A DNA stretch of 64,000 nt from positions 10,254 through 74,253 of the forward strand of contig CAZGJS010000013.1 of the NCBI GenBank assembly GCA_964525875.1, in the 5' to 3' direction. A program made the translations under genes and the position numbers. The notes under the pieces are model-generated. The model had not been told where the DNA came from. It saw nothing but the letters and a program-made list of their open reading frames with translations, and did no database searches. This stretch comes from an uncultured Eubacteriales bacterium. GTDB lineage: Bacteria; Acidobacteriota; Aminicenantia; Aminicenantales; Saccharicenantaceae. This document shows positions 19,780-34,849 of this stretch, one piece after another. How positions within the stretch are numbered: position 1 is the stretch's first letter; each line of letters begins with the position of its first letter.

Positions 19780-19780
19780 C

Positions 19781-20583: not shown

Positions 20584-21501
20584 ATGAAAGGTCATCGCAA
20601 GACCACGCCCCCTGCTCTCGCTGTCCTCATGACTTTCCTGGCTCTGATCGGCCTGGTCCTTCTGGTTATGCCCGAGAAGGTCGCGGCCCGTCAGGACGGG
20701 CAATATGCGGGCATCGAGCAGTGCGCGGCGTGCCACGAGGAAACTGTCGCCCAGTTCCGCGAATCGATCCACGGGAAAAAGGGGTTCGAGATGCGCTCGA
20801 GCCACTCCTGTGAAACCTGCCACGGGGCCGGCAAGGCCCACGTGGACGCGGGCGGAGGCAAGGGCTCCATGACGACGATCAAGGGGCTCTCCAAGGAAAA
20901 ACAAACGGAGATGTGCCTGCAGTGCCATGACCGCGGGAACAAGACCGACTGGCAAGGGAGTCTCCACGAGACCCGTGGGCTTTCCTGCCAGGATTGTCAC
21001 TCGGTCCACAGCCCCGGCACCGACAAGGCTCAGCTCAAGGCGTCCGAAACGGATCTGTGCTTCACCTGCCATAAGCAGAAGCAGGCGCAGTTCTTCCGGG
21101 CATCCCACCACCCGGTCCGGGAAGGTAAGATGGCATGCTCCGACTGCCACAATCCCCACGCCGTCCAGGAAGGCAAGCTCGTCGACCAAGCGGCCGTGGC
21201 AGAGACCTGTTATCAGTGCCACGCCGAAAAGCGCGGGCCCTTCCTCTGGGAGCACATCCCCGTTCGGGAGGATTGCATGACCTGCCACGAAGCCCACGGG
21301 TCCAACCACATGAAGATGCTCAAGGTGAAGGAGCCCTTCCTTTGCCAGCGCTGCCATTCCGACACTCGGCACCCCGGCACGCTCTACGACCAGACCCAGC
21401 GGAACAACGACAGCAATCGCCTGTACGGCCGCTCCTGCACCAACTGCCATTCGACGGTCCACGGTTCGAACCATCCTTCGGGCAGGACCTACCTGAGGTG
21501 A
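20584..21501 (+). CDS. periplasmic decaheme c-type cytochrome, MtrA/DmsE/PioA family-like
   Basis: 305 aa, signal peptide, exactly ten CxxCH (CAACH CETCH CLQCH CQDCH CFTCH CSDCH CYQCH CMTCH CQRCH CTNCH); RBS AAAGGAGGA. Confidence 0.8.
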   Translation: MKGHRKTTPPALAVLMTFLALIGLVLLVMPEKVAARQDGQYAGIEQCAACHEETVAQFRESIHGKKGFEMRSSHSCETCHGAGKAHVDAGGGKGSMTTIKGLSKEKQTEMCLQCHDRGNKTDWQGSLHETRGLSCQDCHSVHSPGTDKAQLKASETDLCFTCHKQKQAQFFRASHHPVREGKMACSDCHNPHAVQEGKLVDQAAVAETCYQCHAEKRGPFLWEHIPVREDCMTCHEAHGSNHMKMLKVKEPFLCQRCHSDTRHPGTLYDQTQRNNDSNRLYGRSCTNCHSTVHGSNHPSGRTYLR

Positions 21502-23728: not shown

Positions 23729-23732
23729 AACG

Positions 23733-23781
23733 CCCGGGCCGGGAGGGGGACGCTCTCCCCTTCCCGGCCCGGATTCTCTTT
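23733..23781. terminator. bidirectional rho-independent terminator between convergent operons
   Basis: Hairpin cccgggccgggaggggga-cgctc-tccccttcccggcccgg followed by ATTCTCTTT on + strand and preceded by AAAA (TTTT on - strand). Confidence 0.6.
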
Positions 23782-23867
23782 ACGTCTCTCCCCCCTCCCT
23801 CAGGACCTCTCGATGCCCTGGTCGATTGAGGGGCATTTCTCCCCGGGGAGACGGTTCAAAGGGAGTG

Positions 23868-24683
23868 TCAGGGCGCCGGGACGGCTTGGCGAGCAGGCTC
23901 TGTCCCCCCGGCTTCGAGGGCCTTTTGCCTCTCGGCCAGGATCTTCCGGTATTCCAGGGCGTGAAGAGTCTTCAGCTCGTGCCCGCTGATCTTGCCGTTG
24001 ATCCATATCTTGCTCATCGGGAAGACTTCGGGGTTGAGGTGGACGTTGTACATGTGCCAGATGATGATCGCCAGGAAGGCCAGCATGGCCTCGTAGCCGT
24101 GGGCGATGACGAAAATATCGTGGACCCAGAGAGGGAAGATGCTGAGCGACAGATCCACGTTCCACATGAAGAAGCCGGAGATGATCATGATGAACGACCC
24201 CCAGGCCACGGAGAGATATTCGAGCTTCTCGACAAAATTATAGCGACCGTACTCCGGCGGATTCTCGAACCTCCAGAAGGGATGGCGGTCGAAAAACTTC
24301 CGAAGGATCCCCTTCCGGTAGAGCCAGCGCGATAAGCCGACGTTGTACCCGAAAAGGGCCACGGCGTCGAGGCCGTCCTTCGGATGCGGGATCATCTCCT
24401 TGAAGTTGTCCCGGCCCCTCCGGGTCAGGATGGTGTAGCCGGAGTGCCAGACCATATCGACGATCAGGACGATCGCCGCGACGCGGTGCAAGACCCCGCG
24501 ATAGGTGAACGCCTTCTCGATGCTGAAGATGGACTTGAAGATGCGCAGCTCGTAGAACATCAGGGGCAGCCCCGTCACGACGAGGAGCGAGAAAGAAACG
24601 ATGAGGAGGACGTGCTGGACCCTCTCGGCCGGGTTCATCCGGAGAAAAACTTCGTCGTCGCGGATGAGCGTCTTTCCGGTCAT
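23868..24683 (-). CDS. di-heme membrane cytochrome b (FdnI/HydC/cytochrome b561-like quinone-interacting subunit)
   Basis: ATG 24683 (MTGKTL...) in ATGA overlap with upstream gene; 5 TM helices with conserved His (HVLLIV, HRVAAIV, HGYEAM, WHMYNVH). Confidence 0.6.
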   Translation of the reverse strand: MTGKTLIRDDEVFLRMNPAERVQHVLLIVSFSLLVVTGLPLMFYELRIFKSIFSIEKAFTYRGVLHRVAAIVLIVDMVWHSGYTILTRRGRDNFKEMIPHPKDGLDAVALFGYNVGLSRWLYRKGILRKFFDRHPFWRFENPPEYGRYNFVEKLEYLSVAWGSFIMIISGFFMWNVDLSLSIFPLWVHDIFVIAHGYEAMLAFLAIIIWHMYNVHLNPEVFPMSKIWINGKISGHELKTLHALEYRKILAERQKALEAGGTEPARQAVPAP

Positions 24684-25918
24684 CTTTTCCATCGGATCCT
24701 CATGCGGCGATAAAGGTCGGCGGCGATGAAGGCCAGGAACACGAAGATCAATCCGCCGATGACGACCATGTAGACGATCTTGACGGTATAGGCCCAGCGG
24801 TTCTCGGTTTTCTCCGAGATGACGTGGATGCGGCCCTTGGAGAAGTTGTCGCCGGCGCCCGGATGGCAGGTCCCGCATGTTGCGGCCATGTTGGCCGGGT
24901 TGATGGACGAGAGGGGGTCGGAGGACGGCCGGATGCCGTGGTGCCCGTGGCAGCTCGAGCAGTTGGCGACCTTGACTTCGCCGAACTTCGAAGCCGTGCC
25001 GTGGTAGGACGCGGAGAAGGTCTTAAGCCGGGACGTCAGAAGGCCATACTGTCTGGCCAGGGTCTCGTCGTCGTGGCAGCGGGTGCAGACGGCGGCCACC
25101 TTCGTGGCGTAAACGCCCGAGCCGAGGTCCTCGGGGGAGCGGATGTCGTGCTCGCTGTGGCAGTCCGTGCAGACGGGGACGCCCTGGACGCCCTTGACAT
25201 AGTCTTTGCCGTGAACGCCCTCGAGATAATCCCGCTCAATGCCGGTATGGCACGTCCCGCAAGTTCGAATGATGTTCTGGCGCGAGACTTTGGACCGAGG
25301 GTCGTCGACCGTACGGACCGAGTGGCCGCCGTGGCAGCTGAGGCAGGTCGCGGAAAGACTCAGGCCCGCCTTGGACAGGGCCCGGAAATGAGCGCTGTCC
25401 TTATAGCCGCCGACGAATCCCGCCACCCGCTTGGCCTTGACGCGCTCGAGATGGCAGGTCAGGCAGGTGTCGGGGATGTTCATCGGGGAGGTGTGCGACT
25501 GGGCGTCTTTGGCGGGACGGATATCGTGAGTGCCGTGGCAATCCTTGCATTGGACGGTGATGGGCGAGTCCCCGTCATGCTGACGGCCATGGATGCTGTC
25601 GCGGATCGCGGTGGCTGCCTCCTCGTGGCAGGACGCGCAATCGACCGGCTTGAGCTTCGCGGCGTGAGGGAAATCCGTGAACTTTTTGAGGTCGGCGTGA
25701 CAGTCGACGCAGGCGATCCCGGCCGAGCCGTGGATCGAAGCGGTGAAACTAGCGCCGTCCACGAAAAGGGAGCGGCCCTGCTCCGTTTTCAACCCGGAGT
25801 CCCCATGGCAGGTCAGACAGTCGTCGTCGGATTGTCCGGCGAGGGCCGGCGCGGCGGTCCAGAGAACGACCAGCGCCGCCGGGAGGGCAAGCCGCAGGAA
25901 CGCGCCGCGGAGCTTCAT
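24680..25918 (-). CDS. undecaheme c-type cytochrome with C-terminal TM anchor
   Basis: ATG 25918 (MKLRGAFL signal peptide); 11 CxxCH; C-terminal TM VKIVYMVVIGGLIFVFLAFIAADL. Confidence 0.75.
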   Translation of the reverse strand: MKLRGAFLRLALPAALVVLWTAAPALAGQSDDDCLTCHGDSGLKTEQGRSLFVDGASFTASIHGSAGIACVDCHADLKKFTDFPHAAKLKPVDCASCHEEAATAIRDSIHGRQHDGDSPITVQCKDCHGTHDIRPAKDAQSHTSPMNIPDTCLTCHLERVKAKRVAGFVGGYKDSAHFRALSKAGLSLSATCLSCHGGHSVRTVDDPRSKVSRQNIIRTCGTCHTGIERDYLEGVHGKDYVKGVQGVPVCTDCHSEHDIRSPEDLGSGVYATKVAAVCTRCHDDETLARQYGLLTSRLKTFSASYHGTASKFGEVKVANCSSCHGHHGIRPSSDPLSSINPANMAATCGTCHPGAGDNFSKGRIHVISEKTENRWAYTVKIVYMVVIGGLIFVFLAFIAADLYRRMRIRWKR

Positions 25919-25956
25919 CGGGTCTTGAATCCTCGCCTCCGGCGGCGGAAGCGGAC

Positions 25957-26475
25957 TTACTTCCCCGGGACGGGGTGCTTGATCTTTTCCCAGAAGGAGG
26001 CGAAGTCGAAGCTGATGCCGTGGGGATTCTCGTGACACTTCAGGCACTGGGCTTTGATGGCGTCGGGGCTGCCGTAGAGGATCAGTCCGTTCTTCACGGA
26101 CTCAGCCTTGTCCTTCATCACGCTGAGCTTCTTGTACTCGCTGCCGGGGCCGTGGCAGACCTCGCAAGATACGCCATCGGACTTGAGGTCGGGGGCTTTG
26201 GCGGCGAGCGGAGAGTGGCACTTCAGACAGCGCGGGTCGTCCGCCGGCTTGTCCACGCCCATGGCCTGACAAGCCTCGGCCGCCTTGGACGAGGTCAGGG
26301 CTTCCAAGGACTTGGAATGCTTGGAGCTTTCCCAGATCACATACTGCCGTCCCTGGTTCTCCGACTTATGGCAAATCTGGCATTTCTGGGCGCCGACGTA
26401 GGCGAATTCCTGGCCGATGGCCGGGACGGCCAGAATGAGCAGACCCAAGGCTGACAGCGCAAGCTTGTTTTTCAT
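25957..26475 (-). CDS. tetraheme c-type cytochrome (cytochrome c554-like), secreted
   Basis: Signal peptide; CQICH, CLKCH, CEVCH, CLKCH. Confidence 0.75.
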   Translation of the reverse strand: MKNKLALSALGLLILAVPAIGQEFAYVGAQKCQICHKSENQGRQYVIWESSKHSKSLEALTSSKAAEACQAMGVDKPADDPRCLKCHSPLAAKAPDLKSDGVSCEVCHGPGSEYKKLSVMKDKAESVKNGLILYGSPDAIKAQCLKCHENPHGISFDFASFWEKIKHPVPGK

Positions 26476-26574
26476 GGTCACTTCCTATAACTCATATAAG
26501 GTCTATCGGATAAATATTGTATTAAACCGGCGGTGAATTGTCAACGCGAATGGACAGAATTGCTTGCCGGGCTC

Positions 26575-27843
26575 TTACGGCCGGGAACCGCCGCGGCCTT
26601 CTCCCTCTCGCCGGGCACGCGCCATGCGCCTGATTTTCAGGGCAAGGGCGGCCGCGAAGACGGCCAGGAGAACGGTGGTCACGGCCAAGCCCCGCCGCCG
26701 GAAGCGGGCCTCGTCCAGAGCCTTCTCGCCGGCGGTGCGGACCCCGGCGAGCGCCGCTTCTCCTTCGGCGACGGTCTTGGCGATCTCGGCCGTATCGAGA
26801 CCGTGGGTCAAGTTCTTGGCGGTGACGAGGACGGTCGTCACGTCCAAGAGCTTGAATTCCGCATCGCTGACTTCGACGCCCTTCTGCTTGGCCCGCGCCA
26901 AGAGGCCCTCGGCGGCCTGGAAACCGGACTCGAAGCGGTCGAGCGTCCGGCGGAGCTCGGCCGCCGCCTCGAACCCCCGCGACCCTTTTTCGTGGCACTG
27001 GACGCACACGGCACGATCGTCGGTCCCGATCATCGCCGTGGAGGGGGTAAGGATCTTGTGGTTTCCGTGGCAGGCTTCGCACTCGCTCGCCCCGAGCTCG
27101 TCGAAGGCCTTTTTATGGGGGCTCTTGGTGAAGAGCTCGCCCGTCGAGGGATGGCACTGGCGGCAGACCGAGGCCACCGACGTGACGGATGGCGGATAGG
27201 CGCCGTGGTTTCCGTGGCAGTCATTGCAGACGGGAGCGGAAAGGTCCTTCTTGTCATAGAGGGCCTTGGCGTGGACGCTGGCTTTGTAGTCGTCCAACTG
27301 GTCCGTCGGGATCCTATAGCCCTCCATGAAGGCCTTGTCGGCGTGGCAGCGGCCGCAAGTCTGGGGGATATTCCACGGAAAAGTCGGGGATTTGGGGAAC
27401 CTGGCCGATTGGATGCCATGGACACCGTGGCAGTCGGTGCAGACGGCCGCTTTCGTATCCCCGGATTTCAGGAGCTGCCCGTGGCGGCTGGTTCCATATT
27501 GACTGAGCTGGTCCGTGCGCAGGGCGGGATTGTAGGCCCGCATGGCCGCGGCGTCGGAGTGGCACCCTCCACAGAACTGGGGGATTTGGCTCCGTTTGGG
27601 CGATCCCTTGAACGATTTGTCCTTGGCCAGGTCGACGTCGTCCTTGTCCGGATTCCCTCCGTGACAGTCCTTGCAGCTCAGCCCGTACTCGGCGTGGACA
27701 TCGGCAGCGAAAGAGGCGGCCGGGACCTTGAGCTCGTCGTCGAGCTGGTTATGACACTCGATACAGCTGTTTTTCTGCCCGAAGGCTAGGAGCGGCGCAA
27801 AAAGCGCCGCCACGGTAAGAAAGCGGATCGCACGGATTTTCAT
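26575..27843 (-). CDS. nonaheme c-type cytochrome with C-terminal TM anchor
   Basis: Signal peptide MKIRAIRFLTVAALFAPLLAFG; 9 CxxCH; C-terminal helix LAVTTVLLAVFAAALAL. Confidence 0.75.
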   Translation of the reverse strand: MKIRAIRFLTVAALFAPLLAFGQKNSCIECHNQLDDELKVPAASFAADVHAEYGLSCKDCHGGNPDKDDVDLAKDKSFKGSPKRSQIPQFCGGCHSDAAAMRAYNPALRTDQLSQYGTSRHGQLLKSGDTKAAVCTDCHGVHGIQSARFPKSPTFPWNIPQTCGRCHADKAFMEGYRIPTDQLDDYKASVHAKALYDKKDLSAPVCNDCHGNHGAYPPSVTSVASVCRQCHPSTGELFTKSPHKKAFDELGASECEACHGNHKILTPSTAMIGTDDRAVCVQCHEKGSRGFEAAAELRRTLDRFESGFQAAEGLLARAKQKGVEVSDAEFKLLDVTTVLVTAKNLTHGLDTAEIAKTVAEGEAALAGVRTAGEKALDEARFRRRGLAVTTVLLAVFAAALALKIRRMARARREGEGRGGSRP

Positions 27844-27855
27844 ATTATCGTCTCG

Positions 27856-28932
27856 TCAGAGTTTCGGCAACGCATAGGTCAGGACCGTCATGACCGCGAT
27901 GTAGGCGGCCAGGACCAGACCGATCCAGGTGAAAGGGGGGCTTCGCTTCTCGCGGCCGGCGCGCCGGTCCAGGAAGGGTATCAGCATCCAGAGCAGGCCC
28001 CCGGCCATGAAGCCCAATATGGCCAGCCTCTCCCCTTCGATGGACAGGATGTGCGCGGGGACGATCTTGAGGGTCGTGAACATGAAGGTAAAATACCACT
28101 CCGGTTTGATGCCGAGCGGGGTCGCGGCCAGCGGGTCGGCTTTCGTTCCGATCTCCCATGGTAAAAATACGCACAGGACGCCGATGAGGACGAGCATCAG
28201 GGTCCAGCCGAGTGCATCCTTGTACAGGAAGTCGGGAAAGAAGGGGATTTCCTTCGTCCCGCGCTCGCCGACGGGCTTGCTCATGCCCAGGGTTTGGACG
28301 AGGAGGATGTGGATGCCGATGAGGATCAGCGCGGCCAGGGGCAGCAGGGCGACGTGGAACCAGAAGAAACGGGAAAGGGTCGCCTGGGAGACCTCGGGCC
28401 CTCCCAAGATGAACGTTTTGAGCCAATTGCCTATGAACGGGAGGCTCCCGGCGATGTCTGTCCCGACGCGGGTCGCGAAATAGGACAGCTCGTTCCAGGG
28501 GAGGAGGTAGCCGCTGAACCCGAAGGCCATGAAGAGGACTAACAGGAGGAAGCCGGTCACCCACGTCAGTTCCCGGGGTTTACGGTAGGCCTTGAGGAAG
28601 AATGTCGAGAACATGTGGACGAAGAGGAGGCCGATGAGGATGTTGGCCGTCCAGCTGTGGACGGAGCGGATGAGCCAGCCGAACTTGACCCCGCTCATGA
28701 TGAACTGGATGCTTTCGTGGGCGGCGTCGATGTGGGGAGTATAGTAAAGAAGGAGCATGGCGCCCGTCGCGACCTGGATCCCGGTCAGGAACAGGCAGAT
28801 CCCGCCGAAGAAATACCAGAATGAATGGCGGTGTTCGGGAACGGTCTTTTTCTTTCCAAAGGCGATGAGCCCTGAAAGCAGGAAGCGTTCGTCCAGGAAT
28901 TTCCAGACGCTCTGCCCGATTTTCTTGGCCAT
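27856..28932 (-). CDS. cytochrome b of a Rieske/cyt b (bc-type) complex
   Basis: ATG 28932 (MAKKIGQSVWKFL); 8+ TM helices, heme-ligand His pairs, Qo-site PEWY motif (IKPEWYF). Confidence 0.8.
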   Translation of the reverse strand: MAKKIGQSVWKFLDERFLLSGLIAFGKKKTVPEHRHSFWYFFGGICLFLTGIQVATGAMLLLYYTPHIDAAHESIQFIMSGVKFGWLIRSVHSWTANILIGLLFVHMFSTFFLKAYRKPRELTWVTGFLLLVLFMAFGFSGYLLPWNELSYFATRVGTDIAGSLPFIGNWLKTFILGGPEVSQATLSRFFWFHVALLPLAALILIGIHILLVQTLGMSKPVGERGTKEIPFFPDFLYKDALGWTLMLVLIGVLCVFLPWEIGTKADPLAATPLGIKPEWYFTFMFTTLKIVPAHILSIEGERLAILGFMAGGLLWMLIPFLDRRAGREKRSPPFTWIGLVLAAYIAVMTVLTYALPKL

Positions 28933-28933
28933 G

Positions 28934-29359
28934 TCAGCTTTTCCTGGAGACGATGATGTCGGGGCCGGAAACCTCGACGGCGTAGGTTTCGAGCGGTCTC
29001 GGCGGCGGCCCGGACAGGACGTTCCCGCTGAGGTCGAAACGGCCGTTGTGACAGGGGCAGAAGAGGGTCCCTGTTTCGCCGTCATAGCGGACCGTGCATG
29101 TCAAGTGGGTACAGATAGCCGAGAGGGCGACCAGGGTCCCCTCCGCCGTGTTGATCAAGACGGCCGGCGCCGAACCGAACTTGAAGATCTTGGCCGCGTT
29201 GGGGGGAAGCTCGCCGGCCTTGGCCGCCGCGACGCTGTTCTGGACGGCGCCGGTCCTCTTGGACGGGAGGACGTAGCGAACGACCGGATAGACGAAGGCG
29301 GCGATCGTGGCCAGAAGGCTTCCGCCGAAGAAGATGTCGAGGAAACTGCGGCGTTTCAC
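28934..29359 (-). CDS. Rieske [2Fe-2S] iron-sulfur protein
   Basis: N-terminal TM anchor; CTHLTC ... CPCHNG cluster-binding boxes; ATGA overlap with upstream gene. Confidence 0.85.
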   Translation of the reverse strand: MKRRSFLDIFFGGSLLATIAAFVYPVVRYVLPSKRTGAVQNSVAAAKAGELPPNAAKIFKFGSAPAVLINTAEGTLVALSAICTHLTCTVRYDGETGTLFCPCHNGRFDLSGNVLSGPPPRPLETYAVEVSGPDIIVSRKS

Positions 29360-31404
29360 TTTTTCTCTTCTTTTCCGCTGCCCAACGATTTTATTGTTCC
29401 CAATATTTTTGTCAAGTAGTCGTCGATAAAAAGATAGTTGTGGATGCCCGAACTCCCGTCGAGGTCGATCGTCCGCAACGCCTCCTCGATCTTCTGGACC
29501 ACGGCTTTTTCGGGGTCCGTCAAAGGGCTTTTATAGAGGGCGTGGAGGGCGGACCGGGCTTCGTCGGCGCGGCTCCGGACGCCGTCCCGCCACTCGGTGA
29601 ACGTCGCCCGGTATTTCTCGTCGTGGCAGGCGACGCAGGCGCCGCCGTCGGGCCGGACGACCTTCTTGGCTTTATCCACGTGGCAATCCGGGCAGGACGC
29701 CCCGGCCTCGGCCATCATGTCCTTCGGGACCTTGACCTCCCCGAGCGCCCCTCCCTCGTAAAACGTTTTCTGGAGGGCATGGCACTCGCCGCAGCTTTTC
29801 TTGGCCTCCTGATGATGGCAGGTTGCGCAGGACGCCTTGGTGGCCGTCAGCTCGCCATGGCGGCGGACGTTCGAATGGCACGTCGCACACTCCAGCTTCT
29901 GCCCGACAGCATGTTTGCGGTGGGAAAACTGGAGGCCGAACACGGGGCGGCTGATCTCCTCGATCCCGGCGTGGCAGGTCAGGCAGGCGTTCGGCGTTTC
30001 GCGGTTCAAGAGGGTCGTCGCCTCCGGCCGGTAGGTGGAGCCCGCGGCGGCCAGGGCTTCGCGGATTTTTTCAAGCGACGCGGTCAAGAGCTCCTGGGAA
30101 TAGGCCATGTTATGGACGCTCTTGCCCTTTTCCACGATGTCGATATTGAACCGGGCTTCATCGAGGAGGGCCGTGGGCTCTTTCTTTTTCGGCCCGGCCG
30201 CCGATCGGACGGCCACGGCCGCCCGCGCCGAAATCGCCTTGATCTCCGCCAGCCTCTTCTCGGTCGCGCTCTCCCAATTCTTTAAGATCCGGTCGAAGCC
30301 GCGGCCATGGCACGACTCGCAGGCCGCGCCGCTCGCCGTGAGCGTATCGCCCTTGTCCAGCCGGCCGCTCGCCTCATGGAACATGTGGCAGCCCTGGCAG
30401 CTAAGCCCTTTCTCCAGCATGACGTTGGGCATGGCGTGCGGGATCCCTTTTCCGCCCTGACCCGTGTAAAGGATTTTCTGGGCGCTGTGGGTCCCTTGGT
30501 GGCAGGCCTGGCAGTCGGCGATCGTCTCGATGTCCTTGACGATCTTGTGTTCGATTTCGCGGTGGCACTGCTCGCACTCGATCTTGTTGGCCGTGATGTG
30601 GGTCCGGTGCATAAGTTCCGTATCGTTGTACTTCTCCAGCCGGTCCCTCTCGAAATGGCACTTGTCGCAGTTTTCCTTCGGCACCTCGCCGTCGCCGGAC
30701 ACGATACGGCTGTGGCACTTGTCGCAGCTGTAGCCGTTGTCGAAGACGGGCATGTGGTCGAAACGCTCCTTGACGGCGAGAAGCTCGTCCTTGCGGTGGC
30801 AGACGGCGCATTCCCCTGTCCGGACCTCGGGCGCCTTGTCCTTGAAATGGCAGAGGAAACAGGACGCCGGCGTGACGGTGATGTGTTCGCCTTGCACGAT
30901 CTGGGAGTGGCAGCTCGTGCAGCGCAGGGTCTTGCCCCGTTTGAGGTCGTCGAAGTGGGCCTTGTGGTCGAAGGCGACCTTGCCGAACTCGACCTTGCCC
31001 TCGAGAAGCCTCCGGTCGTGACAGCCGGGACGGAGGCAGCTCTCGTCCTGGATTTCCGCCCAGGGCTTGGATTTCACGTAGAGGCGCGTCCAGTAGCGGC
31101 CGACCATGACCAGGCCCTCGATTTTCGTCCGGAAGAACGATTTCATGCCCGGCGGATAATGGCAGACCTTGCACTGGACGTCTTTGTGGGAGGAGGTCTT
31201 CCAGCTCTCGAAAAAGGGCTTCATGTAATGGCAGGACGAACAGAAACGTGACGTCGAGGTCACCTCGATGGAAACGACGAACAGCAGGATGACGGCCGCC
31301 GGCAGGCCGAAGAGGAGGAGACGGCGTTTCCTGCGTTTCGGCTTCTGCGGCAGGGCTTCCGAGCCCAGCACCGCGGCCGGGTCCCGAGGGCCGTCCTCAG
31401 GCAT
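29356..31404 (-). CDS. membrane-anchored multiheme (17 CxxCH) cytochrome with NapC/NirT/NrfH-type N-terminal quinol-dehydrogenase module
   Basis: ATG 31404; TM LLLFGLPAAVILLFVV then FCSSCHYMKPFFESWKTSSH (NapC/NirT signature); 17 CxxCH plus one possible CX4CH (CLRPGCH). Confidence 0.7.
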   Translation of the reverse strand: MPEDGPRDPAAVLGSEALPQKPKRRKRRLLLFGLPAAVILLFVVSIEVTSTSRFCSSCHYMKPFFESWKTSSHKDVQCKVCHYPPGMKSFFRTKIEGLVMVGRYWTRLYVKSKPWAEIQDESCLRPGCHDRRLLEGKVEFGKVAFDHKAHFDDLKRGKTLRCTSCHSQIVQGEHITVTPASCFLCHFKDKAPEVRTGECAVCHRKDELLAVKERFDHMPVFDNGYSCDKCHSRIVSGDGEVPKENCDKCHFERDRLEKYNDTELMHRTHITANKIECEQCHREIEHKIVKDIETIADCQACHQGTHSAQKILYTGQGGKGIPHAMPNVMLEKGLSCQGCHMFHEASGRLDKGDTLTASGAACESCHGRGFDRILKNWESATEKRLAEIKAISARAAVAVRSAAGPKKKEPTALLDEARFNIDIVEKGKSVHNMAYSQELLTASLEKIREALAAAGSTYRPEATTLLNRETPNACLTCHAGIEEISRPVFGLQFSHRKHAVGQKLECATCHSNVRRHGELTATKASCATCHHQEAKKSCGECHALQKTFYEGGALGEVKVPKDMMAEAGASCPDCHVDKAKKVVRPDGGACVACHDEKYRATFTEWRDGVRSRADEARSALHALYKSPLTDPEKAVVQKIEEALRTIDLDGSSGIHNYLFIDDYLTKILGTIKSLGSGKEEKK

Positions 31405-32185
31405 AAGAGTGCAGCCCCGAGAGGAGGTAATTGACTCCGAAATAGGTAAACAGCGCGGCCAGGAAACCGAGGATGGCAATGAGCGCCGAGCGTTTCCCTT
31501 TCCACCCCATGACGATCCGCGTATGGAGATAGAGGGCGAAGACGAACCAGGTGATAAGGCTCCAGACCTCCTTGGGGTCCCAGCTCCAATACCTCCCCCA
31601 GGCCTTGTAAGCCCAGACCATGCCGAAGACGAGCCCCCCGAGGGTGAAGAGAGGGAAGCCCACGGCGACGGCCCGGTAGCTCAGGGAGTCCATTTTCTGT
31701 TTTTTCTCCTCCGTGTCGGCCCTGAGATAGAGCAAGCTGGCGATGAAAGCCACGGCGAAAAACGCCTCGCCGAGGAGGGTGACGGACACGTGGAGCCAAA
31801 GCCAATAGCTCTGGAGGGCAGGGACGAGGGGCGCCGTGTCCTTGGGCATGAGCGGGGACGACGCCAGGGCGACAAGGCCGACGGCGATCAGCATGACATA
31901 GGGCGCAACCCGGGGAATGCGGAATTTCCTGTCGAAAACGATCAAGGCCAGGACCGTTGCCCAGGCCAGGAAAGATAGGGATTCATACATATTGGTGAAG
32001 GGCGCGTGCCGGCTGACGACGGTCCTGAGGATGAGGGCCCCGGTGTGGACCGCGAAGCCGGCTGCGGCCAGCACAAGGCCCGCCCCGGCCCATTTCTCCT
32101 TCCCAACAAAAAGAGAAGCGAGGTAGACGAGCGCCGACAGGATGTAAAGAATGAAAGTGATGGTGAAGAGCGTGGCTTCGGTCAT
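31397..32185 (-). CDS. ccsA: cytochrome c biogenesis protein CcsA (System II heme handling, ResC)
   Basis: WWD-domain motif WGRYWSWDPKE, 7-8 TM helices; ATGA overlap with resB. Confidence 0.85.
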   Translation of the reverse strand: MTEATLFTITFILYILSALVYLASLFVGKEKWAGAGLVLAAAGFAVHTGALILRTVVSRHAPFTNMYESLSFLAWATVLALIVFDRKFRIPRVAPYVMLIAVGLVALASSPLMPKDTAPLVPALQSYWLWLHVSVTLLGEAFFAVAFIASLLYLRADTEEKKQKMDSLSYRAVAVGFPLFTLGGLVFGMVWAYKAWGRYWSWDPKEVWSLITWFVFALYLHTRIVMGWKGKRSALIAILGFLAALFTYFGVNYLLSGLHSYA

Positions 32186-33537
32186 GTTGTCCTCCTGAGG
32201 GATTCGACGAGGGTATCGAATTCGGTCTGGAAAGCTTCGCGACTTTTCGAGGCGAAGCCGCCGAGGACCGCTTCGGTCCTCCCCTGGACCTCCTCGAGGA
32301 CGACCCGGATCTCGCGGGGAGGCCAGTAGAAGGCGAGGAAAAAGCCCGCCGTTACGAAAATGCAGCCGAGCCAGATGAAGGTCACGCCCGGGTCCTTGGC
32401 CGCTTCGAGGACGGAGTATTGGGGGGCCTCATAGTTCTTCAGGATAAAGGAAAGAGAGGCTTGGCCCACCTTGTGCCCCTCCCCGAAATCGGGAAACTTG
32501 GCGAAGGTCCAGCCCGAGTAGACCCGCTCCTCCCCTTTCCAGACCTCGACCAGGGCGGCGGGGTTGTTGGGTTCCATGGAACGGGTTTGGACCTCGTTTC
32601 CCTCACCGATGACGAAATCGGGAACGAACCGGCGGACGGCGAGATGGGTAAAATCCGGGTCCTCTACAGCCAGACGTTCGCCGACCTTCAGGGACAAGGA
32701 TTTGAGATAAGCGGGGTCGGCAGGCTTCTTGACCACGATCTCGAGGCGCGGGTTTTCCCAGTCCCAGCCGTAGCTTGTCTGGTAAAAGGAGAAACGTTTA
32801 TAGGTCAACGGGTGGTTGACCTCGACGACACGCGTCAGGACGGGCGCGCTGTTCTCGAGGACGCTGACGGTGCTCTTCCAGTCCTTGACCCCGCCCTGCG
32901 GATAATATTCCGTTTCGAACCGGTCCAGGCGCACCTGGAACGCGGCATGAGGAACATCGGCCGTCTGGCCGACGCGGAGTTCCAGGTCCGCCCGGCGGCT
33001 GGTCAATCCGCTGATGACGCCCCCGGCCAGGATGATCAGCAGGCCGACGTGGACGGTATCCGACCCGAACCAGCCGAGCCTGCGCTTTTGAGCAACGACG
33101 GCGATGCGGGTTCCTGCGCCCGATGTCCTTAGGCGGTAGTGGCGGGAAGCAAGGGCTTCCCGGACCTTCTCGACGGCCGCGGGAAGAGGACCGGGAATCC
33201 GAGCCCGGCCCTTGATTTTCATGGCCTGGAGGCTTTTGTCATCGACCTCTGGGGAGGCCCGGAAGGCCCGTCTCCACTTGGGTCCGAGCCGGGCAAGAGT
33301 GCAGACGATCGTATTGAGCGCGAACAGGAAGAGTAGCGCGAGATACCAGGCCGAGTGATAAAGGCCCGTCAGCTGGAGCTTGACGAAAAGACCCGAGAGG
33401 CTGCCATAACGGGCGGCGTATTCCGCCGCGCTCCTTCCCTGGGGGATGAGCGTCCCCAGGACGGATGCGAGGGTCAGGATAATGAACAGGACGATGGCCA
33501 GCTTGACCGATTCGAAGAATTTCCAAATTGATTTCAT
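32182..33537 (-). CDS. resB: cytochrome c biogenesis protein ResB/CcsB (System II)
   Basis: N-terminal TM pair flanking large periplasmic domain, typical ResB layout and start MKSIWKFFESVKLAIVLFIILTLASVLGT. Confidence 0.75.
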   Translation of the reverse strand: MKSIWKFFESVKLAIVLFIILTLASVLGTLIPQGRSAAEYAARYGSLSGLFVKLQLTGLYHSAWYLALLFLFALNTIVCTLARLGPKWRRAFRASPEVDDKSLQAMKIKGRARIPGPLPAAVEKVREALASRHYRLRTSGAGTRIAVVAQKRRLGWFGSDTVHVGLLIILAGGVISGLTSRRADLELRVGQTADVPHAAFQVRLDRFETEYYPQGGVKDWKSTVSVLENSAPVLTRVVEVNHPLTYKRFSFYQTSYGWDWENPRLEIVVKKPADPAYLKSLSLKVGERLAVEDPDFTHLAVRRFVPDFVIGEGNEVQTRSMEPNNPAALVEVWKGEERVYSGWTFAKFPDFGEGHKVGQASLSFILKNYEAPQYSVLEAAKDPGVTFIWLGCIFVTAGFFLAFYWPPREIRVVLEEVQGRTEAVLGGFASKSREAFQTEFDTLVESLRRTT

Positions 33538-33691
33538 GACGGCTCCAATCGGCCGGCTGCCGTTTCCCGGCCTAAACTCTATCGATATTATCGGATTTAT
33601 TATTTTTTCGCAACTTGAACCTTACCTGCGTATAATCGTAAAATGACGTAGGGAAAACCTAATAATGCCGTCTTCCCGAGGGGAGGTCGCT

Positions 33692-34636: not shown

Positions 34637-34674
34637 CCGGAACGAGAGGCGGGACTCTCGTCGTCGGTGAGTTC

Positions 34675-34697
34675 AGAGGGGCTGTCCCTCTTTTAAT
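34675..34697 (+). terminator. hairpin + T-tract terminator (member of GGGACAGTCCC-type motif family)
   Basis: AGAGGG-GCTGT-CCCTCT followed by TTTTAATT, 40 nt after stop of 33692 gene. Confidence 0.45.
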
Positions 34698-34712
34698 TCG
34701 GAAAGACGGGGG

Positions 34713-34757
34713 TGGAGCCAGCGAGAGGGATCGAACCTCCGATCTGCAGATCAGTTG
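34713..34757 (-). repeat. R1: degenerate direct copy of tRNA-Thr 3' end (oldest/outermost island junction)
   Basis: tggagccagcgagagggatcgaacctccga identical to 3' 30 nt of tRNA-Thr at 58560; next 15 nt partially similar. Confidence 0.7.
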
Positions 34758-34849
34758 CCCGTCAGCCCGGCCAGTCACAGCCGGGCGTCCCCTTAAAAAT
34801 TCCATCGTTCAATCCTTTGTTCGACAAAACTCATTTTCGGAAGAATAAA

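What the first reader, a model, noticed from the sequence alone, without database searches (positions are those of the whole stretch)
23868..33537. Nine-gene translationally coupled operon combining System II cytochrome c maturation, three quinol-oxidising modules and 41 c-heme sites
On the minus strand the order is resB-ccsA, NapC/NirT-type 17-heme cytochrome, Rieske, cytochrome b (PEWY), 9-heme, 4-heme, 11-heme (TM-anchored) and di-heme cytochrome b. ATGA start/stop overlaps occur at resB/ccsA, ccsA/17-heme, 17-heme/Rieske and 11-heme/cyt b. The last two genes look like a split version of the Geobacter CbcL architecture, where an FdnI/HydC-like di-heme b subunit is fused to a multiheme c domain. 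A Rieske/cyt b complex, a NapC-type quinol dehydrogenase and a CbcL-like unit in one operon is unusual. Dedicated ccsA/resB maturation genes at the head of the operon are also unusual. The operon converges on the MtrAB-like pair and shares a bidirectional terminator with it. Together the two could form a complete inner-membrane-to-cell-surface electron path.
Basis: partly seen in the sequence, partly recalled or inferred. Interest (0 to 1): 0.85.

Follow-up and report, generated by a model that had tools for sequence, protein, structure and literature searches.

The report
Modular quinol-to-outer-membrane cytochrome gene cluster
An uncultured sediment bacterium (Candidatus Aminicenantes) carries a conserved cluster of three membrane modules that take electrons from the quinone pool, with about 42 c-type haems, next to an outer-membrane electron conduit; this suggests that a group usually regarded as fermenters can respire with acceptors outside the cell.

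Summary
The nine minus-strand genes are real and intact, and independent gene calls on identical metagenome contigs agree with them. The haem count is right: 17+9+4+11 = 41 CXXCH. An invariant CX4CH in the "17-haem" protein makes 42 likely.

The cluster is not one uniformly translationally coupled operon. Only two junctions can be ATGA. One gap is 99 nt and another is 38 nt. Two near-consensus sigma-70 promoters sit at module boundaries and are conserved across Aminicenantes species. One of them is written into rare codons at the 3' end of the 17-haem gene. It occurs in 26/33 loci where a Rieske gene follows and in 1/40 where none does.

There are three units:
- resB-ccsA plus an 18-haem cytochrome with an NrfH-like anchor
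- Rieske, cytochrome b and a 9-haem cytochrome
- a 4-haem cytochrome, an 11-haem cytochrome and an FdnI-like dihaem b

The last pair aligns end to end with natural fusion proteins, so it is a split CbcL-type protein.

The arrangement is common rather than unusual: 23 of 29 Aminicenantes loci have all three modules. The 18-haem family occurs in at least 583 species genomes across several phyla.

Most likely function: menaquinol oxidation feeding MtrAB. The direction of electron flow is not shown. I rate it a new variant of a known kind, of moderate to high interest.

The parts
33585..33613 (-). P1, candidate promoter of the first unit (TTGCGA-17-TAATAT), about 50 nt upstream of resB
   Evidence: Below the threshold of the scan (8/12 matches). 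The -10-like box (CC[T/G]ATAAT) and the TTGC -35 are conserved in 8 Aminicenantes loci while the flanks diverge (alignment A3). Coordinates.
32182..33537 (-). resB (ccsB-type System II cytochrome c biogenesis protein), 451 aa
   Evidence: PF05140, 264.8 bits. Four hydrophobic segments. ATGA overlap with ccsA.
31397..32185 (-). ccsA (System II haem-handling/lyase subunit), 262 aa
   Evidence: TIGR03144 equivalog, 257 bits against a cut-off of 187.6. PF01578. WWD motif WGRYWSWD at residue 196.
29356..31404 (-). h17: inner-membrane-anchored cytochrome with 17 CXXCH + 1 CX4CH (682 aa). It has an NrfH/NapC-like N-terminus, 12 haem motifs, a 112-residue helical insert, then a 6-haem OcwA/NrfA-like C-terminal module with terminal helices.
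   Evidence: PF03264, 37.5 bits against 24.1. One N-terminal TM helix at residues 30-48. The profile hits NrfH 2j7a_C (E 1.7e-10) and OcwA 6i5b_A (E 1.5e-11, residues 469-673). All haem motifs and CXXCHxM are conserved in 80 loci down to 39 % identity. AF2 model mean pLDDT 67.
29388..29415 (-). P2, internal promoter embedded in the last codons of h17 (TTGACA-16-TAAAAT), about 30-55 nt before the Rieske start
   Evidence: 11/12 match to consensus. CTTGACAA is invariant in 8 loci. It is built from rare codons: TTG is 8.5 % of Leu, ACA 7.6 % of Thr and ATA 3.8 % of Ile. Present in 26/33 loci where Rieske follows and in 1/40 where it does not.
28934..29359 (-). Rieske [2Fe-2S] subunit, 141 aa, GTG start, Tat motif KRRSFL
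   Evidence: PF00355, 59.5 bits. CTHLTC at residue 83 and CPCH at 101. Box II reads CPCHNGRF, lacking the Ser and Tyr that raise the potential. I infer a low-potential, menaquinol-type Rieske from the logic of PMC4122944.
27856..28932 (-). Cytochrome b (b6 + subunit IV fused), 358 aa, 7 predicted TM helices
   Evidence: PF00033, 174 bits, and PF00032. PDB cytochrome b6/b hits at E about 1e-48. H92/H106 with 13 residues between and H193/H208 with 14 between; PEWY at 277.
26575..27843 (-). h9: 9-haem cytochrome with a signal peptide and a C-terminal TM anchor (422 aa). Inferred c-subunit of the Rieske/cytochrome b complex.
   Evidence: 9 CXXCH. TM segment at 386-404. Accompanies Rieske + cytochrome b in 25/25 Aminicenantes loci and 7/7 loci of other phyla.
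26516..26544 (-). P3, internal promoter (TTGACA-17-TACAAT) in the 99-nt gap before the 4-haem gene
   Evidence: 11/12 match. TTGACAA and TAnAAT are invariant at fixed spacing in 8 loci with otherwise divergent spacers (A2). Pattern found upstream of h4 in 25/38 loci, against 0/19 upstream of h11. No RNA structure in the gap (z = +0.8).
25957..26475 (-). h4: soluble periplasmic tetrahaem cytochrome, c554-like (172 aa)
   Evidence: PF13435, 49 bits. Signal peptide and no other TM segment. Next to h17 in many loci that lack Rieske/cytochrome b.
24680..25918 (-). h11: 11-haem cytochrome with a signal peptide and a C-terminal TM anchor (412 aa). This is the c-half of a split CbcL-type protein.
   Evidence: 11 CXXCH. 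TM segment at 381-399. Collinear with the N-terminal halves of natural fusions.
23868..24692 (-). b561: FdnI/HydC-like dihaem cytochrome b (274 aa, or 271 aa from the ATGA start at 24683). This is the b-half of the split CbcL-type protein.
   Evidence: PF01292, 41.9 bits against 30.1. FdnI 1kqf_C hit at E 1.6e-3. H27, H69, H198 and H213 conserved in at least 96 % of 68 sequences, including the fusions.
23734..23772 (.). GC-rich hairpin between the convergent stop codons of mtrB (23728) and b561 (23868). Probable shared terminator.
   Evidence: 17-bp stem with 14 GC pairs, followed by a T-rich tail on the + strand. -41.4 kcal/mol, z = -5.0. On the - strand it is followed by GCGUUUUAC.
21515..23728 (+). 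MtrB/PioB-family outer-membrane porin (737 aa)
   Evidence: PF11854, 324 bits. TIGR03509, 279.4 bits against 240.
20584..21501 (+). MtrA/DmsE-family periplasmic decahaem cytochrome (305 aa, 10 CXXCH)
   Evidence: TIGR03508, 267.6 bits against 192.2. 10 CXXCH.
18781..20371 (-). ECF sigma factor (19781-20371) and zf-HC2/TonB_C anti-sigma-like protein (18781-19779), divergent from mtrA. Candidate regulators; context only.
   Evidence: Pfam and NCBIfam. The regulatory link is not tested.

Best explanation
This is a chromosomal island of a Candidatus Aminicenantes bacterium. It encodes three separable inner-membrane modules that interact with menaquinol, plus their haem-attachment machinery, next to an MtrAB-type outer-membrane conduit.

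**Module 1 (promoter P1): resB-ccsA and h17.** h17 is an 18-haem cytochrome. Its N-terminus is an NrfH-type membrane anchor with the CXXCHxM haem-1 motif of quinol dehydrogenases. Its C-terminal third is homologous to OcwA, a terminal metal reductase of the NrfA family.

**Module 2 (promoter P2, written into the last codons of h17): a Rieske/cytochrome b complex.** It has a complete Qo site. Its c subunit is a 9-haem cytochrome with a C-terminal anchor. The Rieske protein looks low-potential, that is, menaquinol-type.

**Module 3 (promoter P3): h4, h11 and b561.** h4 is a soluble tetrahaem cytochrome. h11 plus b561 form a split CbcL-type quinol oxidoreductase: an 11-haem c subunit with a C-terminal helix, and an FdnI-like dihaem b.

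**Inferred mechanism.** The three modules oxidise menaquinol in parallel. This would resemble ImcH, CbcL and CbcBA of Geobacter, each suited to a different acceptor potential or energy yield. They pass electrons through anchored multihaem chains and the soluble tetrahaem to decahaem MtrA inside the MtrB porin, and from there to extracellular acceptors.

**Shown:** gene content, motifs, homologies, conserved linkage, conserved promoters.

**Inferred:** which proteins contact which, the direction of flow, and the division of labour by potential.
For: **Domain and motif evidence for each subunit**

**Conservation of h17**
- The h17 family has exactly 17 CXXCH + CX4CH + CXXCHxM in 80 loci from Aminicenantes, Ignavibacteria, Zixibacteria, Marinimicrobia, Calditrichota, Gemmatimonadota and others.

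**Recurrent linkage of the same modules in shuffled orders**
- Aminicenantes order: resB-ccsA-h17-Rieske-cytb-h9-h4-(h11')-h11-b561.
- Ignavibacteria order: h11-b561-h17-h4.
- Zixibacteria order: Rieske-cytb-h9-h17.
- 23/29 Aminicenantes loci have all three modules.

**Separability of modules**
- L007 lacks h11-b561, and several loci lack Rieske-cytb-h9.
- The fused h11+b561 homologues are solitary genes.

**Link to outer-membrane conduits of more than one kind and position**
- MtrAB lies convergent downstream in the window and in L003 and L005-L007.
- MtrAB lies upstream in L013, L018 and L038.
- A decahaem + Porin_4-like barrel + multihaem trio lies upstream in L021.
- 25/29 Aminicenantes loci have an MtrA-like decahaem within 10 kb.

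**Conserved promoters at module boundaries**

**Published analogue**
- The Geobacter extHIJKLMNOPQS cluster encodes a porin plus 12-haem, 10-haem, Rieske, cytochrome b, membrane protein and 4-haem products (PMC5877670).
Against: - There are no expression, biochemical or physiological data, and I found no cultured organism carrying the cluster.
- No MtrC-like extracellular cytochrome is in the 64-kb window. An MtrAB pair without MtrC is the pattern of the Fe(II)-oxidising MtoAB/PioAB systems.
- The CbcL/MtoC family occurs in both reducers and oxidisers, with no sequence feature that tells direction (PMC6295460).
- The C-terminal module of h17 belongs to a superfamily that includes soluble-substrate reductases (NrfA, MccA).
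- The promoters are consensus matches supported by conservation, not mapped transcription starts.
- Canonical MtrB is adjacent in only 7/29 Aminicenantes loci.
- Aminicenantes genomes have mostly been read as fermentative (PMC5569505).
Confidence: 0.55

Rival explanations
1. The hardware is the same but electrons flow inward. MtrAB acts like MtoAB/PioAB and takes electrons from Fe(II), a reduced mineral, humics or a syntrophic partner. The CbcL-type module reduces menaquinone, as MtoC is proposed to do. The Rieske/cytochrome b or NrfH-like module then handles the quinol, for example for reverse electron transport or for delivery to another periplasmic acceptor.
For: - MtrA and MtrB are present without an MtrC gene in 64 kb.
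- CbcL/MtoC/MtrH and CymA-type proteins occur in both Fe(III) reducers and Fe(II) oxidisers and are considered reversible (PMC6295460).
- FdnI-type dihaem b proteins normally reduce quinone (established knowledge of FdnGHI, PDB 1kqf).
Against: - No terminal oxidase, nitrate reductase or carbon-fixation genes are near, though only 64 kb is visible.
- The Rieske box II lacks the residues that raise its potential.
- OcwA, the closest solved relative of the h17 C-terminus, is a terminal reductase.
Confidence: 0.2
2. The core (h17, with h4) is a membrane-bound quinol:soluble-substrate reductase. It would be a covalent NrfH-NrfA-like fusion reducing a periplasmic compound such as nitrite, hydroxylamine, sulfite, tetrathionate or selenite. 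The neighbouring MtrAB pair would be functionally independent.
For: - The h17 profile hits NrfH at the N-terminus. At the C-terminus it hits the OcwA/MccA/NrfA superfamily, including the terminal helices.
- The weak Foldseek hits are all to MccA, NrfA, ONR and NrfH.
- OcwA itself reduces nitrite and hydroxylamine in vitro (PMC9250108).
- The Geobacter ext cluster is implicated in selenite and tellurite reduction (PMC5877670).
- A haem lyase gene next to NrfA/MccA-type genes has precedent in Wolinella nrfI and ccsA1 (my own knowledge).
- In phyla other than Aminicenantes no canonical MtrB was found near h17.
Against: - There is no CXXCK motif.
- 15 invariant and 2 near-invariant non-motif His, plus 3 invariant Met, give 20 candidate distal ligands for 18 haems. 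No open-coordination haem is required.
- The Foldseek E-values are all at least 0.019, on a model with mean pLDDT 67.
- The cluster is linked to outer-membrane conduits of two kinds in Aminicenantes.
Confidence: 0.15
3. There is no integrated system. Three independent, partly redundant respiratory modules merely sit side by side because cytochrome genes cluster near the cell's only System II maturation genes.
For: - Each module has its own conserved promoter.
- Modules occur separately in other lineages.
- Fused CbcL-type homologues are solitary.
Against: - The same modules are linked in different orders in unrelated phyla that have no resB-ccsA nearby (0/16). Proximity to maturation genes cannot explain that.
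- The h17/Rieske and h11/b561 reading frames overlap.
- No terminators lie between the units.
Confidence: 0.1

Closest known systems
Geobacter sulfurreducens extHIJKLMNOPQS cluster (ExtHIJKL conduit plus ExtMNOPQS), PMC5877670
   Same: An outer-membrane porin/cytochrome unit sits beside genes for a Rieske protein, a b6-type cytochrome b, a subunit-IV-like membrane protein, two large multihaem cytochromes (12 and 10 haems) and a 4-haem cytochrome. The window's cytochrome b scores 200 bits on the NCBIfam ExtP model.
   Different: - The ExtP score is below the equivalog cut-off (290), and ExtN/ExtO matches are only marginal.
- Here b6 and subunit IV are fused.
- The porin is MtrB/PioB-type, not ExtI-type.
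- An NrfH-anchored 18-haem protein, a CbcL-type pair and resB-ccsA are part of this cluster.
CbcL (G. sulfurreducens) / MtoC / MtrH family of inner-membrane quinol oxidases or quinone reductases, PMC6295460
   Same: A periplasmic multihaem c domain is followed by an FdnI/HydC-like dihaem b membrane domain, with six TM helices in total. Here that is one C-terminal helix on h11 and about five on b561. Four conserved His residues are present. Genes of this family are often near mtrAB/mtoAB.
   Different: - It is encoded as two overlapping genes instead of one polypeptide.
- It has 11 haems rather than the 9 of CbcL.
- I could not compare it directly with the Geobacter CbcL sequence. Natural fusions at 42-47 % identity stand in for that comparison.
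NrfH / NapC / CymA tetrahaem quinol dehydrogenases (PDB 2j7a, 2vr0) and the 7-haem ImcH
   Same: Single N-terminal TM helix. First haem motif CXXCHxM as in NrfH. Four haem motifs in the first roughly 170 residues. Pfam PF03264 is above threshold.
   Different: - The protein is 682 aa with 18 haem motifs.
- The third motif is CX4CH.
- It is fused to about 14 further haems and two helical segments.
- It scores far below the NrfH and TorC equivalog cut-offs.
OcwA, nonahaem cell-surface terminal reductase of Thermincola potens (PDB 6I5B; PMC6703420), and the NrfA/MccA/ONR superfamily
   Same: h17 residues 469-673 align with OcwA residues 276-497 (E 1.5e-11). The alignment includes the C-terminal helices and the DGSxGxHNY motif.
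   Different: - OcwA is a soluble surface protein of a Gram-positive bacterium, whereas h17 is anchored in the inner membrane.
- Only the C-terminal module is shared.
- Structural confirmation is weak.
MtrAB (Shewanella) / MtoAB (Sideroxydans) / PioAB (Rhodopseudomonas)
   Same: A decahaem of the DmsE/MtrA family and a porin of the MtrB/PioB family, both above the NCBIfam cut-offs, in the gene order A then B.
   Different: There is no MtrC/OmcA gene. The inner-membrane partner set is far larger than CymA or MtoC/MtoD.
Rieske/cytochrome b complexes with multihaem subunits in anammox bacteria (PMC12954380)
   Same: A Rieske/cytochrome b core combined with multihaem c-type subunits in place of a monohaem c1 or f.
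   Different: Those complexes are linked to HAO-like and NAD(P)-related subunits and to nitrogen metabolism. I did not test any sequence relationship here.

Membership tests
System II cytochrome c biogenesis (ResB/CcsB + CcsA) | ResB-like membrane protein | tested here: met
   PF05140, 264.8 bits against 24.6.
System II cytochrome c biogenesis (ResB/CcsB + CcsA) | CcsA with a Trp-rich WWD haem-handling motif | tested here: met
   TIGR03144, 257.2 bits against 187.6. WGRYWSWD at residue 196.
System II cytochrome c biogenesis (ResB/CcsB + CcsA) | Dedicated to this cluster rather than being the cell's general system | not testable with these tools
   Only 64 kb of the genome is visible. resB-ccsA is adjacent to h17 in 26/29 Aminicenantes loci and in 0/16 loci of other phyla. 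The CX4CH motif is conserved in both groups.
NapC/NirT/NrfH quinol dehydrogenases | N-terminal TM anchor followed by a tetrahaem domain matching PF03264 | tested here: met
   TM segment at residues 30-48. PF03264, 37.5 bits against 24.1, over residues 35-170. Motifs at 55, 78, 123 (CX4CH) and 162.
NapC/NirT/NrfH quinol dehydrogenases | NrfH-type haem-1 motif CXXCHxM | tested here: met
   C55, C58, H59 and M61 are invariant in 67 sequences. The motif is present in every homologue whose N-terminus lies within the fetched locus.
NapC/NirT/NrfH quinol dehydrogenases | Orthology to NrfH or TorC (equivalog score) | tested here: not met
   TIGR03153, 36.9 bits against 134.2. TorC models, 33.5 and 27.8 bits against 455 and 478. 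h17 is a much larger fusion protein.
NapC/NirT/NrfH quinol dehydrogenases | Menaquinol oxidation activity | not testable with these tools
   This needs biochemistry.
Rieske/cytochrome b (bc1/b6f-type) complexes | Rieske 2Fe-2S ligands CxH...CxxH with the disulphide cysteines, and Tat export | tested here: met
   CTHLTC at residue 83 and CPCH at 101. N-terminal KRRSFL. PF00355.
Rieske/cytochrome b (bc1/b6f-type) complexes | Cytochrome b with four haem-ligating His on helices B and D, and a Qo motif | tested here: met
   H92/H106, H193/H208 and PEWY at 277. 170 bits to cytochrome b6 of PDB 6rqf.
Rieske/cytochrome b (bc1/b6f-type) complexes | Membrane-anchored c-type cytochrome subunit encoded alongside | tested here: met
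   The 9-haem protein has a C-terminal TM segment 12 nt downstream. It always co-occurs with Rieske + cytochrome b. It is multihaem, not c1 or f.
Rieske/cytochrome b (bc1/b6f-type) complexes | b6f-type haem ci cysteine | tested here: inconclusive
   The only helix-A Cys is C46. By eye it is not at the position of b6 Cys35. I made no rigorous alignment.
CbcL/MtoC/MtrH | FdnI/HydC-like dihaem b domain with conserved His ligands | tested here: met
   PF01292, 41.9 bits against 30.1. H27, H69, H198 and H213 conserved in at least 96 % of 68 sequences.
CbcL/MtoC/MtrH | Multihaem c domain and b domain in one polypeptide | tested here: not met
   They are two genes overlapping by 4 or 13 nt. The concatenate aligns collinearly with natural fusions P0146 (689 aa, 47 % identity, 95 % coverage), P0161 and others.
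CbcL/MtoC/MtrH | Sequence relationship to G. sulfurreducens CbcL itself | not tested
   The reference sequence was not obtainable with these tools.
MtrAB/MtoAB/PioAB outer-membrane conduit | Periplasmic decahaem of the DmsE/MtrA family | tested here: met
   TIGR03508, 267.6 bits against 192.2. 10 CXXCH.
MtrAB/MtoAB/PioAB outer-membrane conduit | MtrB/PioB beta-barrel | tested here: met
   TIGR03509, 279.4 bits against 240.05. PF11854, 324 bits.
MtrAB/MtoAB/PioAB outer-membrane conduit | MtrC/OmcA-type extracellular cytochrome (MtrCAB subtype) | tested here: not met
   The only multihaem ORFs in the window are the five described.
Geobacter ExtMNOPQS | Equivalog-level matches to ExtN, ExtO and ExtP | tested here: not met
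   ExtP, 200.5 bits against 290. ExtN and ExtO, 20-26 bits against 200.
NrfA/OcwA/MccA multihaem superfamily (C-terminal module of h17) | Sequence-profile match that includes the C-terminal helices | tested here: met
   OcwA 6i5b_A at E 1.5e-11 over h17 residues 469-673. MccA at E 5.7e-3 and NrfA at E 0.019.
NrfA/OcwA/MccA multihaem superfamily (C-terminal module of h17) | Fold match and a five-coordinate catalytic haem | tested here: inconclusive
   AF2 mean pLDDT 67. Best Foldseek E-value is 0.019. There are 20 conserved candidate distal ligands for 18 haems.

The most novel reading that the evidence does not exclude
The three modules would not be alternatives but parts of one machine. The strictly conserved 18-haem NrfH-OcwA fusion would be an inner-membrane-anchored wire long enough to reach MtrA across the periplasm. 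The CbcL-type unit would have its quinone site on the cytoplasmic side, and the Rieske/cytochrome b and NrfH-type units would have theirs on the periplasmic side. Together they would form a quinone loop or a potential-gated switch. The cell could then conserve, or spend, proton-motive force according to the potential of the extracellular partner. The nested promoters would set subunit stoichiometry. This would be a new type of respiratory supercomplex, shared by Aminicenantes and several phyla of the Fibrobacteres-Chlorobi-Bacteroidetes group.
Probability: 0.15. Interest if true: 0.85.

Novelty: new variant of a known kind. Interest (0 to 1): 0.58.

Why it matters
Aminicenantes are abundant in anoxic sediments, aquifers and peat and are usually modelled as fermenters. 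A conserved, intact cluster linking the quinone pool to an outer-membrane conduit suggests that many of them respire with extracellular acceptors or exchange electrons with partners.

The cluster also exposes an unnamed but very widespread cytochrome family. It is present in at least 583 species-level genomes and always has 17 CXXCH + 1 CX4CH. It joins a quinol-dehydrogenase anchor to a module resembling a terminal metal reductase.

Three different quinol-interacting modules sit together here, each with its own conserved promoter. This is a natural system for asking why electroactive bacteria keep several quinol oxidases. Until now that question has been studied almost only in Geobacter (ImcH, CbcL, CbcBA).

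A promoter encoded in rare codons inside a gene, present only when the downstream module is present, is a clear example of regulatory sequence embedded in coding DNA.

Tried and rejected
- **Literature.** Eight full-text searches found no paper describing this cluster or the 18-haem family. Only analogues turned up (Geobacter ext cluster, CbcL family, OcwA). The library lacks most subscription journals, so this is absence in that library only.
- **Cultured carrier.** I queried with an Ignavibacteria homologue to look for a cultured organism. The top 120 hits are all metagenome-assembled or unbinned sequences with generic names.
- **Structure of h17.** The AF2 model is mediocre (pLDDT 67). Foldseek against PDB gave no hit with E at or below 1e-3. 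I use it only as weak support for the sequence-profile result and did not measure the length of the haem chain.
- **resB-ccsA as a lyase dedicated to the CX4CH site.** This is not supported by co-location. CX4CH is equally conserved in phyla whose h17 genes have no resB-ccsA within 10 kb. It is not excluded either.
- **A shared operator.** TCCGATAR is not enriched in the window (6 matches against 3.3 expected). A 9-bp-phased ATAK repeat is enriched (11 against 0.79) at the mtrA promoter and at P3. However, the array is not conserved in relative L005, so I report it only as noticed.
- **Cis-regulatory RNA.** Rfam at gathering thresholds finds nothing in 19000-36000.
- **Internal terminator between h9 and h4.** None is apparent (fold z = +0.8).
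- **Fused CbcL-type homologues in the same cluster context.** They do not sit there; they are solitary genes.
- **Equating the cluster with Geobacter ExtMNOPQS.** Rejected, because all scores are below the equivalog cut-offs.

Full report
**1. What is in the sequence**

ORF listing and translation show nine intact reading frames on the minus strand between 23868 and 33537. Pfam and NCBIfam assign them as follows.

| Gene | Length (aa) | Assignment and key evidence |
|---|---|---|
| resB | 451 | PF05140 |
| ccsA | 262 | TIGR03144 above its equivalog cut-off |
| h17 | 682 | NapC/NirT-type N-terminus, 17 CXXCH |
| Rieske | 141 | Rieske protein |
| cytochrome b | 358 | b6 and subunit IV domains fused |
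| h9 | 422 | 9-haem cytochrome |
| h4 | 172 | c554-like 4-haem cytochrome |
| h11 | 412 | 11-haem cytochrome |
| b561 | 274 | PF01292, FdnI-like cytochrome b |

Gene calls on two 100 % identical contigs from independent sequencing runs give the same nine proteins.

The "17-haem" protein also has a CX4CH (CLRPGCH). This motif is invariant in 67 homologues and in every homologue whose fetched sequence covers that part of the protein, across several phyla. Eighteen haems, and 42 sites in all, are therefore likely.

Simple hydropathy analysis gives this topology:
- h17 has one N-terminal anchor.
- Rieske has a Tat-type anchor (KRRSFL).
- Cytochrome b has seven helices.
- h9 and h11 each have a signal peptide and one C-terminal helix.
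- h4 is soluble.
- b561 has four or five helices.

**2. Junctions, promoters and terminator**

The claim of translational coupling is only partly right.

| Junction | Arrangement |
|---|---|
| resB/ccsA | ATGA overlap |
| ccsA/h17 | 8-nt overlap (ATGCCTGA) |
| h17/Rieske | GTGA overlap |
| Rieske/cytochrome b | 1-nt gap |
| cytochrome b/h9 | 12-nt gap |
| h9/h4 | 99-nt gap |
| h4/h11 | 38-nt gap |
| h11/b561 | 4- or 13-nt overlap, depending on which ATG is the start |

The promoter scan found seven sigma-70-like sites in 15 kb, against 2.3 expected. The two best (11 of 12 matches) are both on the coding strand and both lie at module boundaries.

- **P3** is TTGACA-17-TACAAT at 26544-26516, in the 99-nt gap.
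  - In an alignment of this spacer from eight Aminicenantes loci, TTGACAA and TAnAAT are invariant at fixed spacing. The rest of the spacer is not conserved.
  - The pattern lies upstream of h4 in 25 of 38 loci and upstream of h11 in 0 of 19.
- **P2** is TTGACA-16-TAAAAT at 29415-29388, inside the last codons of h17.
  - The octamer CTTGACAA is invariant in eight loci.
  - It is built from codons that are rare in this cluster: TTG is 8.5 % of Leu, ACA 7.6 % of Thr and ATA 3.8 % of Ile.
  - The full motif is present in the last 100 nt of h17 in 26 of 33 loci where a Rieske gene follows. It is present in only 1 of 40 loci where none follows, although many of those encode the same Leu-Thr residues. 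This points to selection on the DNA, tied to the downstream module.
- **P1** is a weaker promoter with a conserved -10-like box, upstream of resB.

The h9/h4 gap has no significant RNA structure (z = +0.8). Read-through is therefore plausible, and the best description is nested transcription units rather than one simple operon or three isolated ones.

Between the stop codons of mtrB and b561 lies a 17-bp GC-rich hairpin (-41.4 kcal/mol, z = -5). It has a T-rich tail on the + strand and GCGUUUUAC on the - strand. A shared terminator is plausible. The scan flagged it on the + strand only.

**3. Source organism and frequency**

Homologues of h17 at 79-87 % identity are labelled Candidatus Aminicenantes. 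The window also carries housekeeping genes: an RpoD-like sigma factor, SMC and MsrAB. It is therefore chromosomal.

Relatives in Aminicenantes are 51-76 % identical. Relatives at 39-45 % identity occur in Ignavibacteria, other Bacteroidota, Zixibacteria, Marinimicrobia, Calditrichota, Gemmatimonadota, Glassbacteria and Kryptonia.

I mapped the window's proteins onto the 80 fetched loci by tblastn.
- The canonical Aminicenantes order is resB-ccsA-h17-Rieske-cytb-h9-h4-(extra gene)-h11-b561.
- The extra gene is a further multihaem cytochrome with a C-terminal anchor, a paralogue of h11 (L003:15459-16697). The window lacks it.

Counts for loci with at least 6 kb on both sides of h17:

| Feature within the locus | Aminicenantes (29 loci) | Other phyla (16 loci) |
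|---|---|---|
| Rieske + cytb + h9 | 25 | 7 |
| h4 | 28 | 12 |
| h11 + b561 | 27 | 13 |
| resB + ccsA | 26 | 0 |
| All three modules | 23 | 4 |
| MtrA-like decahaem | 25 | 9 |
| Canonical MtrB | 7 | 0 |

Gene order differs between phyla: h11-b561-h17-h4 in Ignavibacteria and Rieske-cytb-h9-h17 in Zixibacteria. Some Aminicenantes lack one module. L007 has no h11-b561, and L010, L026 and L033 have no Rieske-cytb-h9.

The cluster is thus made of three separable modules: h17 (with h4), Rieske-cytb-h9, and h11-b561. They are repeatedly found together in different orders. This argues for a functional relationship and against the combination being rare.

**4. The parts in detail**

*h17*
- The N-terminus matches NrfH (PDB 2j7a_C; E 2.3e-7 with the single sequence and 1.7e-10 with the profile).
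- It carries the CXXCHxM motif of NrfH haem 1, invariant throughout.
- Twelve haem motifs lie in residues 55-366. A 112-residue helical insert follows, then six more motifs and a helical C-terminus.
- The profile's best solved relative is 6i5b_A (E 1.5e-11, h17 residues 469-673). This is OcwA, the nonahaem cell-surface terminal reductase of Thermincola potens (PMC6703420). It belongs to the NrfA/MccA/ONR superfamily (PMC9250108).
- The AF2 model is only moderately confident (pLDDT 67). Foldseek finds nothing at E below 1e-3. The weak top hits are MccA, NrfA, ONR and NrfH.
- Conserved non-motif His and Met residues number 20 for 18 haems. An open catalytic haem is neither required nor excluded.
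- Public annotations of the family are only generic: "cytochrome c3 family" or "NapC/NirT family".

*Rieske/cytochrome b*
- The Rieske cluster ligands and disulphide cysteines are present: CTHLTC and CPCH.
- All four cytochrome b haem ligands are present: H92/H106 and H193/H208.
- PEWY is present.
- Box II of the Rieske protein reads CPCHNGRF. It lacks the Ser and Tyr that raise the potential in high-potential Rieske proteins. By the reasoning of PMC4122944 this suggests a low-potential, menaquinol-type centre. This is my inference.
- h9 has the same topology as cytochrome c1 or f (C-terminal anchor) and always accompanies the pair.

*h11 + b561*
- The concatenated pair, used as one query, finds natural single-chain proteins that cover 91-95 % of it at 42-47 % identity (P0146, 689 aa; P0161; P0175 and others).
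- These proteins have 10-19 CXXCH motifs in the N-terminal part. A helix follows, then the PF01292 domain.
- Four His residues are conserved across 68 split and fused sequences.
- This is the architecture described for CbcL/MtoC/MtrH (PMC6295460).
- The fused genes are solitary, so the unit can work alone.

*MtrAB*
- Both proteins pass the NCBIfam cut-offs for the DmsE/MtrA and MtrB/PioB families.
- No MtrC-like gene, and no other multihaem gene, is in the window.

**5. Link to the outer membrane**

Three arrangements link the inner-membrane cluster to a conduit.
- The window and its closest relatives (L003, L005-L007) have mtrAB convergent downstream.
- L013, L018 and L038 have mtrAB directly upstream of h17, in place of resB-ccsA.
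- L021, a complete Aminicenantes chromosome, has a different set on the same strand just upstream of resB. It comprises a histidine kinase, a sigma-54 response regulator, an MtrA-like decahaem, a 628-aa Porin_4-like barrel and a 416-aa multihaem cytochrome.

Repeated association with conduits of different type and position is the strongest argument that the inner-membrane modules serve electron exchange across the outer membrane.

**6. Mechanism**

The best-supported reading is parallel oxidation of menaquinol by three modules. Each has its own promoter. Electrons would feed anchored multihaem chains and a soluble tetrahaem carrier (h4), then MtrA inside MtrB. P3 directly precedes h4 and is near-consensus. 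This may allow the small carrier to be made in excess, though that is my inference.

The analogy is Geobacter, where ImcH, CbcL and CbcBA serve different potential windows (my own knowledge; the families are listed in PMC11492766). The closest published gene-level analogue is the Geobacter ext cluster. It has a porin plus 12-haem, 10-haem, Rieske, cytochrome b, membrane protein and 4-haem products (PMC5877670). Its function is also unresolved.

The direction of flow is not determined. MtrAB without MtrC is typical of Fe(II) oxidisers, and CbcL/MtoC-type proteins work in both kinds of organism. A soluble-substrate reductase role for h17 also remains possible.

**7. Novelty and verdict**

Every component belongs to a known kind. 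These points are new relative to the literature I could search:
- The 18-haem NrfH-OcwA fusion family, its strict conservation and its breadth.
- Its recurrent linkage with a Rieske/cytb/9-haem complex and a split CbcL.
- The nested conserved promoters, one of them embedded in coding sequence.
- The implication that Aminicenantes are widely equipped for extracellular electron exchange.

I classify it as a new variant of a known kind. Interest is moderate to high (0.58). The coupling and single-operon claim is too strong. The haem count is probably 42 rather than 41. The claim that the combination is rare does not hold.

Noticed in passing
window 20457-20526 (upstream of mtrA) and 26485-26506 (P3 region): A 9-bp tandem repeat, CCTATAGTA x 3.7 (20493-20525), lies just downstream of a TTGACA (20457-20462) in front of mtrA. 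9-bp-phased ATAG/ATAT elements also follow the -10 box of P3. The pattern ATAKN5ATAK occurs 11 times in the window against 0.79 expected, and 8 of the 11 are at these two promoters. It could be a shared operator. The array is not conserved in relative L005.
   Followed up: partly
window 18781-20371 (-); also 6848-9543 (-) and 58847-59620 (-): An ECF sigma factor and an anti-sigma-like protein with zf-HC2 and TonB_C domains lie divergent from mtrA. A second ECF sigma gene sits just upstream, on the same strand, of a gene for a protein with three TonB_C domains. A third TonB_C protein lies elsewhere in the window. I did not test whether the first pair regulates mtrAB.
   Followed up: no
L003:15459-16697 (also L005, L006, L008 and others, between h4 and h11): Most Aminicenantes relatives carry an extra 412-aa multihaem cytochrome with a C-terminal TM helix between h4 and h11. 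It is a paralogue of h11. The window, L037, L038 and L047 lack it.
   Followed up: partly
L021:12-7742: In a complete Aminicenantes chromosome, five gene products are encoded on the same strand just before resB: a histidine kinase, a sigma-54 response regulator, an MtrA-like decahaem, a 628-aa Porin_4-like barrel and a 416-aa multihaem cytochrome. This is a different porin-cytochrome conduit with two-component control.
   Followed up: partly
window 29356-31404 (-), h17 residues 427-432 and 649-656: The motif G-K/S-S-V/I-H-N occurs twice, once in each helical segment (GKSVHN, DGSSGIHN). It is invariant in 67 homologues, and the second copy aligns with DGSNGVHNY of OcwA. These are probably distal haem ligands supplied by the helices.
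   Followed up: partly
window 33665-34636 (+): A DUF7544 membrane protein gene lies divergent from resB. It keeps this position in the closest relatives (L003, L005-L007; 65-67 % identity) and lies nearby in L047. Its function is unknown.
   Followed up: no
window 44188-45422 (-): An IstB-like IS21 ATPase ORF (273 aa) is followed by a short overlapping ORF. No IstA transposase appeared among the ORFs I scanned. It may be an insertion-sequence remnant.
   Followed up: no
window 49887-52699: Two divergent paralogous AAA_14/DUF4143 ATPase genes lie next to a 956-aa Ser/Thr kinase with PD40 beta-propeller repeats (46964-49834).
   Followed up: no
window 9751-10728 (+) and 16765-17718 (+): Two PAS-GGDEF diguanylate cyclase genes lie within 11 kb upstream of the mtrAB side of the cluster.
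   Followed up: no
L083:10001-11962, L085:3194-5263: The single-chain (fused) relatives of h11+b561 sit in a conserved housekeeping neighbourhood: rhomboid protease upstream, LOG-like lysine-decarboxylase-family protein and a small OMP beta-barrel downstream. No other cytochrome genes are nearby.
   Followed up: partly
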